A stretch of DNA of 64,000 bases, from assembly GCF_035084215.1 (NCBI RefSeq), contig NC_090339.1, forward strand, positions 12,152,001-12,216,000, given 5' to 3'. The DNA is from Heptranchias perlo (taxonomy: Eukaryota). The stretch's first letter is position 1, and every line of letters begins with the position of its first letter. A program made the position numbers and the translations under genes. The notes under the pieces were generated by a model. It made no database searches, had not been told where the DNA came from, and saw only the letters and a list, made by a program, of their open reading frames with translations. This document shows, in pieces, positions 5,461 to 64,000 of this stretch.

Positions 5461-6506
5461 TCTGTTGGAGGCCAATCATCTCAGCCCCAGGGCATTGCTG
5501 CAGGAGTTCCTCAGGGCAGTGTCCTAGGCCCAACCATCTTCAGCTGCTTCATCAATGACCTTCCCTCCATCATAAGGTCAGAAATGGGGATGTTCGCTGA
5601 TGACTGCACAGTGTTCAGTTCCATTCGCAACCCCTCAGATAATGAAGCAGTCCGAGCCTGCATGCAGCAAGACCTGGACAACATCCAGGCTTGGGCTGAT
5701 AAGTGGCAAGTAACATTCGCGCCAGATAAGTGCCAGGCAATGACCATCTCCAACAAGAGAGAGTCTAACCACCTCCCCTTGACATTCAATGGCATTACCA
5801 TCGCCGAATCCCCCACCATCAACATCCTGGGGGTCACCATTGACCAGAAACTTAACTGGACCAGCCATATAAATACTGTGGCTACGAGAGCAGGTCAGAG
5901 GCTGGGTATTCTGCGGCGAGTGACTCACCTCCTGACTCCCCAAAGCCTTTCCACCATCTACAAGGCACAAGTCAGGAGTGTGATGGAATACTCTCCACTT
6001 GCCTGGATGAGTGCAGCTCCAACAACACTCAAGAAGCTCGACACCATCCAAGATAAAGCAGCCCGCTTGATTGGCACCCCATCCACCACCCTAAACATTC
6101 ACTCCCTTCACCACCGGCGCACTGTGGCTGCAGTGTGCACCATCCACAGGATGCACTGCAGCAACTCGCCAAGGCTTCTTCGACAGCACCTCCCAAACCC
6201 ACGACCTCTACCACCTAGAAGGACAAGGGCAGCAGGCGCATGGGAACAACACCACCTGCACGTTTCCCTCCAAGTCACACACCATCCCGACTTGGAAATA
6301 TATCGCCGTTCCTTCATTGTCGCTGGGTCAAAATCCTGGAACTCCCTTCCTAACAGCACTGTGGGAGAACCGTCACCACACGGACTGCAGCGGTTCAAGA
6401 AGGCGGCTCACCACCACCTTCTCGAGGGCAATTAGGGATGGGCAATAAATGCCGGCCTTGCCAGTGACGCCCACATCCCGTGAACGAATAAAAAAAAGTA
6501 AAAAAA
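5461..6506 (+). mobile_element. CR1-group LINE family B, 5'-truncated, young
   Basis: RT motifs GVPQGSVLGP and FADD in an open frame to 6435, short 3' UTR, poly(A), TSD AATAAAATC at 5452-5460 and 6507-6515. Confidence 0.93.
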
Positions 6507-9424: not shown

Positions 9425-10402
9425 AGAATCATAAGTTACAGCACAGAAGGAGGCTATTCAGCCCATCGAGTCCGTGCCGGTTCTATCCAAGAGCAATGCA
9501 GCTAGTCCCACTCCCCTGTCCTATCCCCGTAGACCAGCAATTTTTTTCCTTTCAAGTACTTATCCAGTTCCCTTCTGAAAGCCATGAATGAATCTGCCTC
9601 CACCACCCCCTCGGCAGTGCATTCCAGATCCTAACCACTCGCTGTGTAAAAAGGTTTTTCCTCATATCACCTTTGGCTCTTTTGCGAATCACCTTAAATC
9701 TATGTTCTCTGATTCTTGACCCTTCCGCCAATGGGAACAGTTTCTCTCTATCCTGTCTAGACTCTTCATGATTTTAAATACCTCTATCAAATCTCCCCTC
9801 AACCTTGTCTGTTCCAAGGAGAACAACCCCAGCTTCTCCAGTCTATCCCCGTAACTAAAGTCCTTCATCCCTGGAATCATTCTAGTAAATCTTTTCTGTA
9901 CCCTCTCCAAGGCCTTCACATCTTTCCTAAAGTGCAATGCCCAGAACTGGACACAATTCTCCAGCTGTGGACAAACCAGTGTTTTATAAAGGTTAATCAT
10001 GACTTCCTTGCTTTTGTAATCTATGCCTCTACTTATAACGCCCAGGATCCCGTATGCTTTTTTAACCGCTTTCTCAACCTGCCCTGTCACTTTCAACGAT
10101 TTGTGCACATACACCCGCAGGTCCTTCTGTTCCTGCACCCTCTTTAGAATTGTGCCCTCTAGTTTATATTGACTCTTCTCATTCTTCCTTCCAAAATGGA
10201 TCACTTTGCATTTTTCTGTGTTAAATTTCATCTGCCACGTGTCCGCCCATTCCACCAGCCTGTCTATATCCTCTTGAAATCTTTTACTATCCTCCTCACT
10301 GTTCACTACACTTTCAAGTTGTGTGTCATCTGCAAGTTTTGAAATTGTGCTCTGTACACCCAAATCCAAGTCATTAATATATATCAAGAAAAGCAGTGGT
10401 CC
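9425..10402 (-). mobile_element. CR1 LINE 3' fragment
   Basis: ORF 9689-10387 has IYINDL, ADDT, RGDLIEVFKI. CR1 tail near 9425-9480. Confidence 0.9.
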
Positions 10403-10992: not shown

Positions 10993-11537
10993 GGGCCGGA
11001 TTTTGCTCTGAAAATAATGGCGAGCCTAACAGCACTCACCGTCATATCAGTGCGTCCGGTACAGCAACTTCTGGCAACCGCGCACGCGCAGTTTAACATG
11101 GAAATCTGGAAATTGCTCTACCAGATGCCTTGCTCCTACGTAAGCTTCATGAGAACTGCAACTCGTTAGCTGACTCACCGTTAAAATGAATACAACATCG
11201 TGAAGTTCCTCTACTGCCCTGATGGAAATAAAGTAATCTCGCCAAGAAAAGGTACGTCAAGTTTTTTTTTAATCTAAGCAAACTTTTAACGGTGTGTTAA
11301 GTCTTAATGGCTGCCAAACAGCCTTCCTGGCACTGAAAATTAACTTTTACAAGTGTGGAGTCTCATTCGTTCAGAATTTAATTGTTGTCGGACATTTTTT
11401 AAAAAAAATAAATTTTTAACCTTTTTCTTTCAGTCTCTTAATATTTCTTACCCTCTATTTTTCTTTCTGTACCTTATTTGACATTGAATTCACCATTCTA
11501 ACTTACGCTTCCTGGTTCTGACTCTGCGCTGCTTATT
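10993..11537. mobile_element. Non-autonomous TIR DNA transposon (Harbinger-type MITE), right end lost
   Basis: Begins ATT|GGGCCGGATTTTGCT. Internally similar to 61210-61981 and 38615-39380 (e.g. GAAAATTAACTTTTACAAG). Confidence 0.65.
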
Positions 11538-12344
11538 AATATGCTTCAATTGGACTTGGGTGTACAGGGCACAATTTCAAAATTTGCAGATGACACAAAA
11601 CTTGGAAGTGTAGTAAAAAGTGAGGAGGATAGTAATAGACTTCAAGAGGACATAGACAGGCTGGTGGAATGGACTGACACATGGCAGATGAAATTTAACA
11701 CAGAGGAGTGTGAAGTGATACATTTTGGCAGGAAGAATGAGGAGAGGCAATGTAAACTAAATAGTACAATTCTAAAGGGAGTGCAGGAACAGAGAGACCT
11801 GGGGGTATATGTGCACAAATCTTTGAAGGTGGCAGGACAGGTTGAGAAAGCGGTTTAAAAAAGCACACGGAATCCTGGGCTTTATAAATAGATGTGGAGA
11901 TGCCGGTGATGGACTGGGGTTGACAATTGTAAACAATTTTACAACACCAAGTTATAGTCCAACAATTTTATTTTTAATTCCACAAGCTTTCGGAGGCTTC
12001 CTCCTTCCTCAGGTGGTGTGGAAATGACATTTTCGAATCCTTCGCATTTTAAAATCACAGAACAATGCCTGGTGATTACTGCCCGTTGCCAAGGCAATCA
12101 CAGAGAGCAGACAGAATGGTGTCACCTAAAAAGGCCACCGAATATACAAACCCCCCCCCAAAAAAAAGAGAGAGAGAGAAGGAAGACAGTCAATGACCCG
12201 TTATATTAAAAACAGATAACATTTGTTCGCTGGTGGGGTTACGTGTAGTGTGACATGAACCCAAGATCCCGGTTGAGGCCGTCCTCATGGGTGCGGAACT
12301 TGGCTATCAATTTCTGCTCGACGATTTTGCGTTGTCATGTGTCG

Positions 12345-12584
12345 ATGCGACAACGGATGAACGGACACCGCGCAACAATCGCCAAACAGGAGGGTTCTCT
12401 CCCTGTCGGGGAACACATCAGCAGTCATGGACATTCAGCCACCGACCTTCGGGTAAGCCTACTCCAAGGCGGCCTTCGAGACACACGACAACGCAAAATC
12501 GTCGAGCAGAAATTGATAGCCAAGTTCCGCACCCATGAGGACGGCCTCAACCGGGATCTTGGGTTCATGTCACACTACACGTAA
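12345..12584 (+). pseudogene. C-terminal fragment of Penelope-type GIY-YIG endonuclease
   Basis: MRQRMNGHR...VGEHISSHGH...EQKLIAKFRTHEDGLNRDLGFMSHYT*: RxRxxxH, HxxxxxH and ExxLI...GLN motifs typical of PLE endonucleases. Confidence 0.85.
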
Positions 12585-12810
12585 CCCCACCAGCGAACAA
12601 ATGTTATCTGTTTTTAATATAACGGGTCATTGACTGTCTTCATTCTCTCTCTCTCTCTCTTTTTTTTGGGGGGGGGTTTGTATATTCGGTGGCCTTTTAG
12701 GTGACACCTTTCTGTCTGCTCACTGTGATTGCCTTGGCAACGGGCAGTAATCACCAGGCATTGTTCTGTGATTTTAAAATGCGAAGGATTCGAAAATGTC
12801 ATTTCCACAC

Positions 12811-12845
12811 CACCTGAGGAAGGAGGAAGCCTCCGAAAGCTTGTG
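12811..12845 (+). ncRNA. Minimal type I hammerhead ribozyme in PLE pseudo-LTR (mirror copy on - strand at 11981-12015)
   Basis: CAC-CTGAGGA-A-GGAGG-AAG-CCTCC-GAAA-GC-TT-GTG: CUGANGA and GAAA cores, 5-bp stem II, stem I CAC/GTG, vestigial palindromic stem III (AAGCTT). Confidence 0.85.
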
Positions 12846-13919
12846 GAATTAAAAATAAAATTGTTGGACTATAACTTGGTGTTGTAAAATTGTTTACAAT
12901 TTATAAATAGAGGCATAGAGTACAAAAGCAAGGAGGTTGTGTTGAACGTTTATAAAACACTGGTTCATCCACAACTCGAGTATTGTGTCCAATTCTTGGC
13001 ACCGCACTTTAAGAAGGATGTGAAGGCCTTAGAGAGGTTGCAAAAAAGATTTACTAGAATGGTTCCAGGGATGAGGGACTTCAGTTACGTGGATAGACTG
13101 GAGAAGCTGGGGTTGTTCTCTTTAGAGCAAAGAAGGTTAAGAGGAGATTTGATAGTGTTCAAAATCATGAAGGATTTAGATAAAGTAAATGGAGAGAAAG
13201 TGTAGAATAGCCACCTTCTGAAGTGTCCCGAAAACTGCACTTTGTCAACAAATAATATTTGTGACATCCGCAACCATATTTGCAATGCATACTTGAACTT
13301 AACGACATTATAGAGTATTCCTTTATTTAAGCAGTATCTAGGAAGTTCATGTGCTAGTTTTCCACGAGAGATCAACAGATTGGTCTCTTAACAATCTAGT
13401 TATTCCTTTTAGCTTTCCAGATGCCCATCTATTTAAAGTTTTGGTTACTTTAATCCAAATAAAACTCAGGCAAAGTTTACTGGTGGTACATGGGGAATAC
13501 CAATGTGATTTATGGTCTGACCAGATTAATACAGTGTCAATGTTTGCTACACTGGCACATCACCGTGGTCAGGGGTGATGTTTGATTTTAATATAAAAAT
13601 CTACAGATCGATCGCTGATTATACCAGTTACTTGGTTAGGTGAGATTGTTTCACAATGCAAATATTCTACTGTAGTGTTTTCATTTAAGCCTAGTAATTG
13701 CTCAGAATATTGTGCAAACACTTAAGCATCCTCATACTAAATTGCGCTGTCTGCTATTTTGATAATGGCCTGTTTATTGTCAATGAGTTGACACATCAGT
13801 TAAAAATAGAAGAGAATAATTTGACAGGAATGTGTTTGGCATTTGTACAATGACATCACTTAACAATAATGCACTCCCCATCACTGCATCAACTATTTGT
13901 TTTTTAAATGATTTCACTA

Positions 13920-36980: not shown

Positions 36981-37312
36981 CGCCAAGGCTTCTTCGACAG
37001 CACCTCCCAAACCCGCGACCCCTACCACCTAGAAGGATAAGAGCAGCAGGCGCATGGAACAACACCACCTGCACGTTCCCCTCCAAGTCACACACCATCC
37101 CGACTTGGAAATATATCGCCGTTCCTTCATTGTCGCTGGGTCAAAATCCTGGAACTCCCTTCCTAACAGCACTGTGGGAGAACCGTCACCACACGGACTG
37201 CAGCAGTTCAAGAAGGCGGCTCACCACCACCTTCTCGAGGGCAATTAGGGGTGGGCAATAAATGCCGGCCTTGCCAGCGACGCCCACATCCCGTGAACGA
37301 ATAAAAAAAAAA
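36981..37312 (+). mobile_element. CR1-group LINE family B, 3' end
   Basis: Near-identical to 6168-6497, poly(A) tail. Confidence 0.92.
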
Positions 37313-42349: not shown

Positions 42350-44255
42350 ATGGCATTAATGAACTCATGGCATTAATGAACTCATGGCATTTCAGATACT
42401 GGGCAGATACATTAATGAACATGACATTGCAGATACTGGGCAGGTACATTAATGCACATGGCATTGATACTGGGTAGGTACATTAATGAACTCATGGCAT
42501 TGCAGATACTGGGCAGGTACATTAATGAACACGACATTGCAGGTACATTAATGAACATGACTTTTTTATATTCGTTCACGGGATGTGGCCTCGCCGGGAT
42601 GGGCAATAAATGCTGGCCTCGCCGGTGAGGCCAGCATTTATTGCCCATCCCTAATTACCCTTGAGAAGGTGGCGGTGAACCGCCTTCTTGAACCGCTGCA
42701 GGTCGTGTGGTGAAGGTTCTCCCACAGTGCTGTTAGGAAGGGAGTTCCAGGATTTTGACCCAGCGACAATGAAGGAACGGCGATATATTTCCAAGTCGGG
42801 GTGGTGTGTGACTTGGAGGGGAACGTGCAGGTGGTGTTGTTCCCATGTATCTGCTGCTCTTGTCCTTCTAGGTGGTAGAGGTCGCGGGTTTGGGAGGTGC
42901 TGTCGAAGAAGCCTTGGCGAGTTGCTGCAGTGCATCCTATGGATGGTACACACTGCAGCCACTGTGCGCTGGTGGTGAAGGGAGTGAATGTTTAGGGTGG
43001 TGGATGGGGTGCCAATCAAGCGGGCTGCTTTGTCCTGGATGGTGTCGAGCTTCTTGAGTGTTGTTGGAGCTGCACTCATCCAGGCAAGTGGAGAGTATTC
43101 CATCACACTCCTGATTTGTGCCTTGTAGATGGAGGAAAAGCTTTGGGGAGTCAGGAAGTGAGTCACTCGCCGCAGAATACCCAGCCTCTGACCTGCTCTT
43201 GTAGCCACAGTATTTATATGGCTGGTCCAGTTAAGTTTCTGGTCAATGGTGACCCCCAGGATGTTGATGGTGGGAGATTCGGCGATGGTAATGCCGTTGA
43301 ATGTCAAGGGGAGGTGGTTAGACTCTCTCTTGTTGGAGATGGTCATTGCCTGGCATTCGTCTGGCACAAATGTTACTTGCCACTTATCAGCCCAAGCCTG
43401 GATGTTGTCCAGGTCTTGTTGCATGTGGGCTCGGACTGCTTCATTATTTGAGGGGTTGCGAAAAGAACTGAACACTGTGCAATCATCAGCGAACATCCCC
43501 ATTTCTGACCTTATGATGGAGGGAAGGTCTTTGATGAAGCTGCTGACGATGGTTGGGCCTAGGACACTGCCCTGAGGAACTCCTGCAGCAATGTCCTGGG
43601 GCTGAGATGATTGGCCTCCAACAATCACTACCATCTTGCTTTGTGCTAGGTATGACTCCAGCCACTGGAGAGTTTTCCCCCTGATTCCCATTGATTTCAA
43701 TTTTACTAAGGCTCCTTGGTCAAATGCTGCCTTGATGTCAAGGGCAGTCACTCTCACCTCACCACTGGAATTCAACTCTTTTGTCCATGTTTGGACCAAG
43801 GTTGTAATGAGGTCTGGAGCCAAGTGGTCCTGGCGGAACCCAAACTGAGCATCGGTGAGCAGGTTATTGGTGAGTAAGTGCCGCTTGATAGCACTGTCGA
43901 CGACACCTTCCATCACTTTGCTGATGATTGAGGGTAGACTGAGGGGACGGTAATTGGCCGGATTGGATTTGTCCTGCTTTTTGTGGTCAGGACATACCTG
44001 GGCAATTTTCCACATAGTCTGGTAGATACTGGGTAGATACATTAATGAACACGACATTGCAGATACTGGGCAGGTACATTAATGAACATGGCATTGCAGA
44101 TACTGGGCAGATACATTAATGAACATGGCATTGCAGATACTGGGCAGGTACATTAATGAACATGACATTGCAGAAACTGGGCGGGTACATTAATGAACAT
44201 GACATTGCAGAAACTGGGCGGGTACATTAATGAACTCATGGCATGCAGATACACT
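42350..44255. repeat. ~37-39 bp minisatellite (CATTAATGAACATGACATTGCAGATACTGGGCAGGTA) split by a LINE
   Basis: Units at 42350-42561 and 44024-44255 with the same consensus and orientation. Confidence 0.9.
42562..44027 (-). mobile_element. CR1-group LINE family B, 5'-truncated
   Basis: NYRPLSL, QFGFR, DIKAAFD, GVPQGSVLGP and FADD in ORF 42651-44057; homologous to 5461-6506. Confidence 0.93.
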
Positions 44256-58642: not shown

Positions 58643-59832
58643 CTGAAATCAATGGAATGAAAATTATATGGGTTTGATAAGCAAATTCTGCCAGATTACT
58701 GCCCATGCAGTGAAGATGAAAATTTTACCCCATGGCGTTCCAGACCTAGTGAACCAATCAGGAGCTGGAACCCTTGCTGGTTTTCGCTCTACCGAGGACA
58801 TTGAGGCCAAATGTGGCACATCAACTGACTCAGCAAAGGGTGGAATTATGAAGCTGACATCTCCTGGTTGGTAAGGCTTAGTGGCAACCTGGTTGATATC
58901 TTTACCCCCCTCACCACTGGGGAAGCTATGGAAGGCAGTGCTTTTTTATAAACGTCCAGAGATTTATGTCATAAGAAAGCCTGTGATTAGAAACTGCCAT
59001 TCAGCCCATCAATCACTTTTCATCATACGATGTTCAATTTTTAAATCTGTGCGGCTATGGACTCCTTTCCATTTTATCTAAATCTCCTCAGGGAGATGAC
59101 TAATCACAAGTAAAAATTTCTTAAAAAGATAATAAATCTCAGTAAAATTTCTCCCTGCCCACTGAAGGTAATCAATCAAAAGTTACAGGATATCAATTGA
59201 AAATTATAATTTGCATTATTCCAGCCTGACTGGCATCATTCCACAGATGACATGAATGTGGTTCCAACAGGATTGAAACAATATTGTTTGCTAGATTATC
59301 TGATCATCTATGCCCATATGAGAGAGGGGTTTGTCATGTCTTACAGAGGCTGGAGAGAAGGATGCTATAGGCACCCAGGATTGGCAGTAGTACAGAAACT
59401 TCTTGGTCAGACCCCATCTGGGGTACTGCGTTCAGATTTGAGCACCAAACCTCAGGAGTAATCTATTGGCCTTGGAAGGGGTGCAGTACAGATTCACCAG
59501 AATGATGCCAGAGCTTAAAGACTTAAATTATGAAGATAGGTTGCATAAACCTGGCTTATATTCCTTTAAGTTTAGAAGGTTGAGGGGTGATCTGATCGAG
59601 GTGTTTAAAATGATAAAGGGGTTCGATAGGGTAGATACAGAGAAATTATTTCCTCTGGTGGGGGAATCCAGAACAAGGGCCCAATCTTAAAATTTGAACT
59701 TGGCCATTTAGGAGGGAAATCAGGAAGTAATTTTTCACACAAAGGGTAGTGGAAATCTGGAATTTGCTCCCTCAAAAGGCTGTGGATGCTGGGGCAATTG
59801 AAATTTTCAAGACTGAGATGCATATATTTTTG

Positions 59833-60080
59833 TTGTAAACAATTTTACAACACCAAGTTATAGTCCAACAAATTTATTTTAAATTCCACAAGCTTTCGGA
59901 GGCTTCCTCCTTCCTCAGGTGAACGGTGTGGAAATGAAAACATTTCCACACCGTTCACCTGAGGAAGGAGGAAGCCTCCGAAAGCTTGTGGAATTTAAAA
60001 TAAATTTGTTGGACTATAACTTGGTGTTGTAAAATTGTTTACAATTGTCAACCCCAGTCCATCACCGGCATCTCCACATC
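59833..60080. mobile_element. Miniature fold-back PLE insertion (perfect 104-bp arms, 4-nt loop, ~35-nt tail)
   Basis: 59833-59936 is the exact reverse complement of 59941-60044, loop AAAA. Tail TTGTCAACCCCAGTCCATCACCGGCATCTCCACATC. TSD (C)ATATATTTTTGTT at 59821-59834 and 60080-60093. Inserted in a CR1 3' end. Confidence 0.93.
59954..59992 (+). ncRNA. Minimal hammerhead ribozyme (mirror copy on - strand at 59885-59923)
   Basis: TTCAC-CTGAGGA-A-GGAGG-AAG-CCTCC-GAAA-GC-TT-GTGGA. Confidence 0.85.
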
Positions 60081-61209
60081 ATATATTTTTGTTAGGTAAG
60101 GGTGTCAAGGGATATGGAGCTAAGGCAGGTAAATGGAGTTGAGGTACAGATTATCCATGATCTAAGCAGGCCTGAGGGGCTGAATGGCCTACTCCTGTTC
60201 CAGGTCAGAAGCCAGCACCAGAATGCCTGAAGATGTGTGAAGAAAAAAAATCAAGCCATAGATAGAATCCTAGAAAAGGGACGCAATAGATATATTGGGC
60301 AGCCAAATGGAGCTAATAAGTGGAAAAATATCAAGGTAGGTGCTGGAGGAGTGGATGCCTGATGTACAATAGGTCATTAGGAAACCAGACGTGAGCATCA
60401 ACGGCTTAGTGAATAAAACAGGAAAGAAAACTACCTCACATATTGCAATAAAGAACAAAAGTGTAAATACACTGAAACTGAAAGTTGTGCTAAGACAGTT
60501 CCCAGCTCCCTAAGGGAAAATGGCGTCCTGTGCACGTCACACTGGAAGTGTGCATCTCGGACACCATTTTCGGGGCTTAGGTGTCTGCATAGTGCCTACG
60601 GCCCAATTTAGTCCCAAGTGCCTTCTGGACAGGAAGACAAGGGGGATAATACCAGGGAGAGAGGGAACAAAGAAAGAAACATAATTTCCAGTTATAATTC
60701 AACAGCTTAATATCTAATGTCATTAGATGGCTTAACTTCAATGTGAAATCACATTTCTAAATGCACTGCAGTCGTACAACATCACTTGGGTGATAGATGC
60801 AGTAAATGCTCCACATTTACCCTCCTAATGGTCGTCATGATCATCATACAGGACTCGTAATGTATCATTAACTTACTCTAGTCAGCTGCTTTTATTTAAT
60901 AAGATTGTACAAAAGCCAAAAGTAATTCAAATAGACTGTTTTTGTGGTAGTATTAGCTTGATAACATGATGTTTTTCATCCACTTAGCAATCATACAGCC
61001 ATCATTATGGACTGCGTCTCAAATGGCCTATTTTCTGACCTGGTATTTAGAGAACTGAATAGAGAGAGGGAGAAAGTTGCAGGGCTATGGGGAAAGAGCA
61101 TGGGAGTAGGATTAACTATATAGCTCTTCAAAGTGCCGGCACAGGCATGATGAGCCGAATGGCCTCCATCTGTGCTGTACGATTCTATAAGTGTTTGTAA
61201 ATTGTAAAT

Positions 61210-61981: not shown

Positions 61982-62917
61982 ATTAACTCTTTGCACCAGT
62001 GAACCATCTTCCTGAAAAGCGATTCTTTTCAATGAAGGCTGCTTGGGAGGGGAAAGCAAAGGGATGAGTCGTCCAGGTTGAAATTCTGCCATAACTATTT
62101 TGCCCTCAAAGCACATGTCAATGCTGGTTTGCGAAATGATTTAATAAGGTAATTTTATGATGGCAGAAGAAAATGTGTTGCATTTAAGAAATAACAATGT
62201 ACATACCTTGATGACAAGGTCATTGTGAATTCAACTACTGACAGTGTGCCTGGGGACATTTGTGTTTGCGAAGATGGAGTGAGCCCAGACAAAGGGGTAT
62301 TTAGGAAGAAATCTACTTATGACTTGTACTGTTATATAAGATGCATTGCAGATGTATAGCAACTCCCCCAATCAGTCATTATTGTTTTGCTAAAATGTTT
62401 TACATCTGTTGTAAAATTATAATTCTGGAGCCTCCACTAAATGTTTTTTATGCTAGTTAAAGGGCAGTTGTACTCTCAAAGTAAAGTAATTACTCCCTTA
62501 TGTGTTCCACAGTGTTATGTTTATTATAGATTCCTATCTATGAAAGATAATAGCACAGAAATGGCTGCTGTAGATTTTGTTCTCCACCAGTTATGAATGT
62601 AAATCGAATGCAAACAATATCCTCGACAGACCTTTCGCATTGGTTATGGAAAAGAGAGGAAAGTTATCTAACAATACTTAGAGAAACCGGAATAGCCCTT
62701 CAGCCAATCAAATCTCCCCCTACATTTTTTTATTCGTTCATGGGATGTGGGCATCGCTGGCGATGCCGGCATTTATTGCCCATCCCTAATTGCCCTTGAG
62801 AAGGTGGTGGTGAGCCGCCTTCTTGAACCCTGCAGTCCGTGTGGTGAAGGTTCTCCCACAGTGCTGTTAGGAAGGGAGTTCCAGGATTTTGACCCAGCGA
62901 CGATGAAGGAATATTTC

Positions 62918-63162
62918 AATTGTAAACAATTTTACAACACCAAGTTATAGTCCAGCAATTTTATTTTAAATTCACAAGCTTTCGGAGGCTTCCCCCTTCG
63001 TCAGGTGAACGATGTGAAATATCGATTTTCACATCGTTCACCTGACGAAGGGGGAAGCCTCCGAAAGCTTGTGAATTTAAAATAAAATTGCTGGACTATA
63101 ACTTGGTGTTGTAAAATTGTTTACAATTGTCAACCCCAGTCCATCACCGGCATCTCCACATC
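62918..63162. mobile_element. Miniature fold-back PLE insertion (102-bp arms, 7-nt loop, ~34-nt tail)
   Basis: 62918-63019 is the reverse complement of 63027-63128, loop TATCGAT. Same tail ending CCACATC. TSD AGGAATATTTCAA at 62907-62919 and 63163-63175. Inserted in a family-B LINE. Confidence 0.93.
63037..63075 (+). ncRNA. Minimal hammerhead ribozyme, variant (mirror copy on - strand at 62971-63009)
   Basis: TTCAC-CTGACGA-A-GGGGG-AAG-CCTCC-GAAA-GC-TT-GTGAA. The N of CUGANGA differs, stem II keeps pairing through G-U, stem I is a perfect 5 bp. Confidence 0.87.
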
Positions 63163-64000
63163 AGGAATATTTCAAAGTCAGGGTGGTGTGTGACTTGGAG
63201 GGGAACGTGCAGGTAGTGTTGTTCCCATGTGCATGCTGCCCTTATCCTTCTAGGTGGTAGAGGTCACGGGTTTGGGAGGTGCTGTCGAAGAAGCCTTGGC
63301 GAGTTGCTGCAGTGAATTCTGTGGATGGTGCACACTGCAGCCACAGTGCGCCGGTGGTGAAGGGAATGAATGTTTAGGGTGGTGGTTGGGGTGCCAATCA
63401 AGCGGGCTGCTTTGTCCTGGATGGTATCGAGCTTCTTGAGTGTTGTTGGAGCTGCACTCATCCAGGCAAGTGGAGAGTATTCCATCACACTCCTGACTTG
63501 TGCCTTGTAGATGGTGGAAAGGCTTTGAGGAGTCTGGAGGTTAGTCACTTGCCGCAGAATACCCAGCCTCTGACCTGCTCTTGTAGCCACAGTATTTATA
63601 TGGCTGGTCTGGTCAATGGTGACCTCCAGGATGTTGATGGTGGGGGATCAGCGATGGTAATGCAGTTGAATGTCAAGGGGAGGTCGTTATACTCTCTTTT
63701 GTTGGAGATGGCCATTGCCTGGCACTTGTCTGGCACGAATGTTACTTGCCACTTATGAGCCCAAGCCTAAATGTTGTCCAGGTCTTGCTGCATGCGGGTA
63801 CAGACTGCTTCATTTTCTGAGGGGTTGCGCATGGAACTGAACACTGTGCAATCGTCAGCGATCATCCCCATTTCTGACCTTATGATGGAGGGAAGGTCAT
63901 TGATGAAGCAGCTGAAGATGGTTGGGCCTAGGACACTGCCCTGAGGAACTCCTGCAGCAATGTCCTGGGACTGAGATGATTGGCCTCCAACAGCCACTAC

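What the first reader, a model, noticed from the sequence alone, without database searches (positions are those of the whole stretch)
11881..12911. 1-kb palindromic Penelope insertion records the integration mechanism: two fixed ends ~35 nt apart
Seen: all three PLE insertions end ...TTTACAA(TT) on one side and ...TTTACAATTGTCAACCCCAGTCCATCACCGGCATCTCCACATC on the other. Here the longer sense arm (GIY-YIG fragment) has the short end and the inverted arm has the tail. Within each insertion the two arms share private variants (GGTGGTGTGG here, GGTGAACGGTGTGG in copy 2, GGTGAACGATGTG in copy 3). Junctions show 1-2 nt overlaps with the TSD. Inference: both nicks of a 10-14 nt staggered cut prime reverse transcription at two defined sites on the same RNA species, the two cDNAs are joined head to head, and the template was uncleaved at this hammerhead.
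Basis: partly seen in the sequence, partly recalled or inferred. Interest (0 to 1): 0.7.

Follow-up and report, generated by a model that had tools for sequence, protein, structure and literature searches.

The report
Head-to-head Penelope retroelement insertion
This is a real but typical scar of a Penelope-like jumping gene: two cut-down copies sit head to head with one extra 36-base tail, a layout already described and already traced in the test tube to two copying start points, though this copy's shape is a neat hint that both cut DNA ends started copying.

Summary
11891-12901 is a shark-type, Neptune-like Penelope element (PLE) fragment inside a LINE: inverted arm with a 36-nt tail, longer sense arm with the short end, 12-bp target duplication. 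Two small copies (59833, 62920) have the same two ends (3 of 3, within 2 nt). Arms are identical within each locus over about 100 nt and differ between loci. The layout is the published PLE norm (PMC3846280, PMC8557442). Two reverse-transcription start sites bounding the tail, extension of both nicked strands and an uncleaved-hammerhead template were shown in vitro for a Poseidon element (PMC11167929). What the window adds: in copy 1 neither arm can be a copy of the other, which favours priming at both nicks (1 informative locus); junction overlaps exceed chance (13 nt, P 0.004-0.02); both small palindromes are centred on an initiator-like motif, as if both cDNAs ran off the RNA 5' end. How the cDNAs join, and one RNA versus two, is not shown. 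The scan noted similar PLE palindromes, and ends just upstream of the hammerhead, on other genomes. New member of a known kind.

The parts
11881..11892 (.). left target-site duplication, copy 1 (last 2 nt also fit the tail end)
   Evidence: single in the paralogous LINE at 10015-10075 and in 127 empty-site contigs (table 7)
11891..11926 (-). 36-nt tail, only on the inverted arm; ends at the distal start site
11927..12343 (-). inverted 5'-truncated arm (417 nt): ORF end, 3' UTR, hammerhead, pLTR end
11980..12016 (-). minimal type I hammerhead motif, inverted arm (core starts 12012)
   Evidence: pattern scan; fold
12344..12345 (.). head-to-head junction, 2 nt that fit neither arm in register; both breakpoints lie in an imperfect repeat of the element, giving a 7-bp stem across the joint
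   Evidence: table 7 (continuations at 12343 and 12346); fold
12346..12479 (+). unique spacer, continuous with the short-ended sense arm, absent from the tailed arm
   Evidence: joint 12343/12479
12346..12584 (+). C-terminal part of GIY-YIG endonuclease ORF with stop codon (R, H, E, N catalytic region; GIY and YIG motifs are truncated away)
12480..12899 (+). sense arm, part shared with the inverted arm (420 nt), ending at the short site
12772..12805 (+). weak TATA-like run (12772-12779) and initiator-like motif (A at 12801); position where the arms of copies 2 and 3 begin
   Evidence: motif consensus recalled; inference
12810..12846 (+). minimal type I hammerhead motif, sense arm; expected cut between 12842 and 12843; sequence continues unbroken through it
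12900..12911 (.). right target-site duplication, copy 1 (first 2 nt also fit the element)
59821..60093 (.). copy 2: TSD 59821-59834, short-ended arm 59833-59936 (-), 4-nt A loop, arm 59941-60044 (+), tail 60045-60080, TSD 60080-60093
62907..63175 (.). copy 3: TSD 62907-62919, short-ended arm from 62920 (-), centre 63023/63024 (perfect palindrome but for one extra T), arm to 63126 (+), tail 63127-63162, TSD 63163-63175
11502..13200 (+). host: decayed LINE reverse-transcriptase region interrupted by copy 1
   Evidence: weak RVT_1 match E 0.008, below cut-off; paralog 9784-10380

Best explanation
A Neptune-type PLE protein nicks both strands of an AT-rich target 10-14 nt apart (shown: the duplication; inferred: the nicks). 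Each 3' end primes reverse transcription on sense RNA from one source locus, one at the pLTR end and one 36 nt further on, just before an ATG, helped by 1-3 nt of pairing (shown: fixed ends and overlaps; inferred: priming; shown in vitro for Poseidon). Each cDNA runs towards the RNA 5' end through the intact hammerhead. On a read-through RNA they stop at different places (copy 1); on an RNA that starts at the pLTR promoter both run off about 100 nt upstream and give near-perfect palindromes (copies 2, 3; inferred). The two cDNA 3' ends are then joined with 0-4 filler bases and filled in (inferred; the agent, RT jump or host end joining, is unknown).
For: Fixed ends in 3 of 3 copies; contigs of two other organisms also begin at the tail end, 11892 and 11891 (table 8, X9 record 25, X12 record 9). 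Copy 1: the short-ended arm has 134 nt the tailed arm lacks and the tailed arm has 36 nt the other lacks, so neither is a plain copy of the other. The tail is internal sequence: loose ends of 19 X5 contigs (agreement only 0.44) and one X1 joint both continue the tail with ATG (tables 5c, 7). Overlap at 6 junctions totals 13 nt against null means 4.5-6.3, P 0.004-0.019. Two single X1 contigs join the same LINE site to the short end instead of the tail, so either end can sit at either nick (table 5; sides only 21-23 nt). Arms of copies 2 and 3, and one X1 contig, begin within 2 nt of the initiator-like A (table 5c); such a motif occurs at 1.1% of positions. In vitro: both strands cleaved and extended, two start sites equal the tail, no strand difference, unprocessed RNA dominant (PMC11167929).
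Against: Only 1 of 3 loci is asymmetric and so informative. Shared variants do not separate one RNA, two RNAs of one locus, arm-from-arm copying or conversion. Stems of 7 bp or more across all three joints are what fold-back also leaves. The overlap test has 6 junctions and its reference positions were chosen from the same data. The TATA-like run is weak and no RNA 5' end could be observed (contigs only). PMC11167929 reports start sites without homology to the cut DNA. No genome and no full-length copy could be examined.
Confidence: 0.62

Rival explanations
1. Both nicks prime, but most of the second arm is copied from the first cDNA after it folds back; the second primer makes only a short cDNA that anneals to the fold-back product.
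For: Explains identical private variants directly and hairpin-like centres, including the stem across the copy-1 joint where both breakpoints lie in an imperfect repeat.
Against: The centre of copy 3 is a palindrome with no loop but one extra base, easier to get by end-to-end joining; needs an extra step. Not excluded by any search.
Confidence: 0.17
2. Self-priming on an antisense template makes a hairpin or palindromic intermediate that the endonuclease resolves asymmetrically (tail on one side) and integrates (model of PMC3846280; tail by resolution, PMC8557442).
For: Published reading of head-to-head palindromes; predicts shared variants and lets either arm be the longer; the short end lies at the foot of a 7-bp DNA hairpin.
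Against: Later in vitro work shows target-primed extension of both strands on sense RNA at the two tail ends. It gives no reason for centres to fall on a sense initiator-like motif, nor for excess junction overlap.
Confidence: 0.11
3. The template was cut by the hammerhead and re-ligated into a circle, so the unbroken hammerhead in the DNA does not mean an uncleaved RNA.
For: Proposed for PLE hammerheads in PMC4209133; gives the same DNA sequence across the cut site.
Against: A circle has no end at which copies 2 and 3 would both stop; this minimal motif lacks helix III and should need a dimer to cut; hammerhead mutants insert normally in vitro.
Confidence: 0.06
4. The arms came from unrelated family members and were homogenised later by conversion between inverted repeats, or the palindrome is an assembly artefact.
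For: Inverted repeats can convert (general knowledge). No contig listed spans the 12343/12344 joint itself (tables were cut).
Against: Copy-1 arms share minority alleles (4-nt deletion; 12249/12574) yet keep 3 substitutions and 3 indels; target duplications, empty paralogs and an interrupted host LINE argue against artefact.
Confidence: 0.04

Closest known systems
Insertion unit of endonuclease-positive Penelope-like elements (PMC3846280 passages and Discussion; PMC8557442 passages)
   Same: Adjacent inverted 5'-truncated copy, head-to-head; 30-40 bp tail on one end only; 8-10 bp target duplications there, 10-14 here; hammerhead in the pLTR; palindrome at the inverted joint; TATA/initiator-like motifs noted in pLTRs.
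   Different: Those papers ascribe the inversion to self-priming on an antisense template or the tail to endonuclease resolution; they do not use arm asymmetry, shared variants or centre position as evidence in the passages read.
PAc (Poseidon of Anolis carolinensis) in vitro reaction (PMC11167929, main text read)
   Same: Two RT start sites bounding the tail, AC-rich stem-loop, AT-rich targets, both strands nicked and extended, unprocessed hammerhead RNA as template.
   Different: Here the family has the CX4CxxC linker of Neptune/Nematis, not Poseidon; both start sites lie before the ATG rather than about 110 nt into the ORF (ATG as ORF start is inferred); 1-3 nt overlaps at junctions; the paper does not discuss inverted insertions and leaves later steps open.
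L1 twin priming (recalled, no call)
   Same: Second target nick primes a second cDNA, giving an inversion between target duplications.
   Different: In L1 the second primer anneals far inside the RNA and the two pieces do not overlap; here both start within 36 nt, so the arms duplicate each other.

Membership tests
Endonuclease-positive PLE | C-terminal GIY-YIG endonuclease with R, H, E, N catalytic residues and CCHH motif | tested here: met
   Window fragment has R, H, H, E, N; its 90%-identical relative P0002 has the cysteines between VYL and YIG. Pfam gave no hit on the fragment itself; relative P0028 hits GIY-YIG E 2e-5.
Endonuclease-positive PLE | Single ORF with PLE-type RT (DKG motif) upstream of the endonuclease | tested here: inconclusive
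   RT is truncated away in the window; met in relatives P0002, P0014, P0026 (RVT_1, DKG).
Endonuclease-positive PLE | Hammerhead motif in the pLTR, sense to the ORF | tested here: met
   Core, 5-bp helix II, palindromic 15.2-16.2 pair, helix I in all 3 copies by hand and pattern (the strict scan found 4 of 6 arms, missing copy 3's G-U helix). Rfam gave no hammerhead hit. Cleavage not testable.
Endonuclease-positive PLE | 30-40 bp tail on one end, equal to the sequence after the pLTR | tested here: met
   36 nt, one end in 3 of 3; continued by ATG in contigs (low agreement).
Endonuclease-positive PLE | Inverted 5'-truncated copy and short target duplication | tested here: met
Neptune clade | CX2-5CxxC linker between RT and a C-terminal endonuclease | tested here: met
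   CX4CxxC in relatives P0002, P0003, P0014, P0020 (definition); not present in the truncated window copy.
Neptune clade | RT phylogeny separating Neptune from Nematis | not tested
   No named reference sequences were at hand.
Penelope/Poseidon clade | Absence of the CX2-5CxxC linker | tested here: not met
   Linker present in the closest relatives.

The most novel reading that the evidence does not exclude
PLE inverted repeats are made by obligatory double target priming: a protein dimer starts both cDNAs on one capped, uncleaved RNA 36 nt apart using 1-3 nt of pairing, the short palindromes are two run-off cDNAs joined end to end at the transcription start (with the extra G at the centre of copy 3 copied from the cap), and the canonical inverted-pLTR/pLTR/ORF/pLTR layout is the same reaction on a longer RNA. 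Palindrome centres would then map PLE promoters in any genome, and the antisense self-priming model would be unnecessary.
Probability: 0.35. Interest if true: 0.55.

Novelty: new member of a known kind. Interest (0 to 1): 0.3.

Why it matters
The steps after nicking and first extension are stated as unvalidated in PMC11167929, and the published reading of the inverted repeats is self-priming on antisense RNA. Asymmetric palindromes such as copy 1 give a cheap genomic test between the models (which arm bears the tail; where centres fall), and a very abundant shark family would supply thousands of cases. It also extends the two-start-site picture from Poseidon to a Neptune-type family. As a structure, however, the insertion is ordinary.

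Tried and rejected
No own genome is held, so the genome-wide table was not possible. A 20-nt pLTR pattern in three contig collections gave 1, 2 and 0 matches; the 3 loci match only at the pattern and encode no PLE protein: chance. Protein scans for a full-length relative with DNA found none in genome contigs (37 candidates, 0 confirmed) or viral contigs (1, 0 confirmed). Cluster members of P0002/P0003 (20 listed of 59) were no longer than 697 aa and gave no N-terminus (lengths and names only, sequences not read); an N-terminal search gave 3 of 988 candidates, none from a shark, so the ATG after the tail is not confirmed as the ORF start. Rfam: 7 matches, all hairpin look-alikes below gathering score, no hammerhead. 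RNA folds of the whole pLTR-tail are not more stable than shuffles (z -0.8 to -1.8; hammerhead alone -2.1). Contig depth (table 2) was not used for tail frequency or truncation counts: it is no copy number and copy 1's deletion lowers it. Expression could not be judged (contigs; X5 only guessed RNA). Simple fold-back of a tail-primed cDNA was rejected for copy 1 (spacer belongs to the other arm). Ends at the hammerhead cut site were looked for among listed joints; one deletion with 4-nt ambiguity spans it and was not counted. No conserved nick motif beyond AT richness by eye (3 sites). bioRxiv 10.64898/2026.07.22.740005 passages had no bearing.

Full report
What is there. The interval is an insertion into a decayed LINE. 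It reads: 12-nt duplication (11881-11892), 36-nt tail (11891-11926, minus), inverted arm (11927-12343), 2-nt joint, sense arm (12346-12899), duplication (12900-12911). The sense arm encodes the last 79 residues of an RT-endonuclease protein, 90% identical to a Heptranchias perlo protein; 32 of 72 candidates were relatives, mostly from sharks. Relatives carry the DKG motif, a CX4CxxC linker and a GIY-YIG domain with the internal cysteines, which by the definitions in PMC8557442 (passages) marks a Neptune- or Nematis-type PLE, not Penelope/Poseidon. The family is abundant: 35,949 contigs of one DNA run lay on 630 bases.

The observation. Two more copies lie at 59833-60080 and 62920-63162. All 3 of 3 have one short end and one tailed end, within 2 nt of fixed positions. 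Duplications are 12, 14 and 13 nt with overlaps counted; 0 of 5000 random intervals matched as well. Paralogous host repeats hold the site once for copies 1 and 3; copy 3's duplication carries an 8-nt deletion on both sides that the paralogs lack, so it was duplicated at insertion. Over about 100 shared bases the arms differ at 0 places within each locus and at 3 to 8 between loci; the full copy-1 arms differ by 3 substitutions and 3 indel events in 420 nt. For two of the three substitutions one search shows the left arm as the rare allele, so they look like later changes.

Is the tail internal sequence? In one search, 19 contigs of run X5 continue past the tail end for a median 177 letters, consensus beginning ATG in element sense (agreement 0.44), and one X1 contig joins the tail through six letters beginning ATG to a 3' UTR piece. 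Contigs of two other organisms begin exactly at the tail end, as expected at a branch point. The tables were cut (22 joints, 386 loose ends not shown). So the tail is very likely the stretch between the pLTR end and an ATG; that this ATG opens the ORF was not confirmed.

Mechanism. At both junctions the element's 3' end meets a target strand in primer orientation. In copy 1 the short-ended arm holds 134 nt absent from the tailed arm, and the tailed arm holds 36 nt absent from the other. A cDNA primed at the tail that folded back would put the spacer in the tailed arm; a cDNA primed at the short site could not supply the tail. Both ends therefore needed their own template, unless integration is not target-primed. 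This rests on one locus; copies 2 and 3 are symmetric. Junction overlaps total 13 nt over 6 junctions against 4.5-6.3 expected (P 0.004-0.019 over three target compositions), a modest sign of 1-3 nt pairing; the reference positions came from the same data. Two single contigs join the same LINE position to a short end (sides 21-23 nt), a weak sign that the site is reused and that either end can take either nick.

An addition. The arms of copies 2 and 3 begin at the same place, at an initiator-like motif whose A is 12801 in copy 1, 29 nt downstream of a weak TATA-like run (consensus motifs recalled); one X1 contig also ends there (table 5c). Copy 2 has a 4-nt A loop; copy 3 is a palindrome around C|G with one extra T, the G lying where copy 1 has C. 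I read these as two cDNAs that ran off the RNA 5' end, the G possibly copied from the cap (cap copying recalled; copy 3's source base is unknown). I noted this before the look-up returned a similar note from another genome. No RNA end could be observed.

Hammerhead. A minimal type I motif lies at 12810-12846 and in every arm, with no helix III. The DNA runs unbroken through the expected cut. By PMC4209133 (passages) such motifs need a dimer to cut, and re-ligated circles were proposed there; uncleaved is the simpler reading for copies 2 and 3, undecidable for copy 1.

What is known. PMC3846280 (passages and Discussion) describes the inverted pLTR, a 31-bp tail on one inverted pLTR, 8-10 bp duplications and palindromic joints, and proposes self-priming on an antisense template. 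PMC8557442 (passages) calls the inverted truncated copy and one-sided 30-40 bp tail typical. PMC11167929 (parts 1-2 of 4, covering the main text; passages; two supplement PDFs gave almost no text) shows both strands cleaved and extended, two start sites equal to the tail ends, and unprocessed RNA as the dominant template. In six searches and these readings I found no explicit statement that double priming makes the head-to-head repeat; subscription papers and unseen figures may hold one.

Verdict. Its architecture and three of its four mechanistic claims are published. The remaining value is a testable genomic argument for double priming and for run-off at the transcription start, in a Neptune-type family. 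Best explanation 0.62; interest 0.3.

Noticed in passing
window 59936-59941 and 63020-63026; 12799-12805: Centres of the two small palindromes coincide with an initiator-like motif 13-17 nt upstream of the hammerhead core; possible RNA 5' end.
   Followed up: partly
window 11888-11892 (table 5): Single contigs join this same LINE position to the short end of the PLE: possible insertion hot spot in a high-copy LINE, with free polarity.
   Followed up: partly
window 12340-12358 and 12478-12494: Both copy-1 breakpoints fall in an imperfect direct repeat of the element, so the joint forms a 7-bp stem.
   Followed up: partly
window 12883-12900 and tail: The short end lies at the foot of a 7-bp hairpin; in RNA folds the tail pairs with a segment about 45 nt upstream, enclosing the short site.
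   Followed up: partly
window 62907-62919 and 63163-63175: Copy 3's target has an 8-nt deletion relative to three paralogs, making it more AT-rich; present in both duplicated copies.
   Followed up: yes
window 5462-6500, 37056-37309, 42610-43623, 62721-63993: A young repeat family (93-95% alike) that hosts copy 3; not identified.
   Followed up: no
proteins P0001, P0010, P0016, P0021-P0023, P0030-P0032, P0040: Many shark gene models (XRCC5, septin 5a, FAM204A and others) include pieces of this PLE ORF: exonised fragments or annotation errors.
   Followed up: no
window 12079 joined to 11891 (table 5c): A contig implies a tandem or internally deleted derivative: pLTR, tail, six further bases, then 3' UTR.
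   Followed up: no
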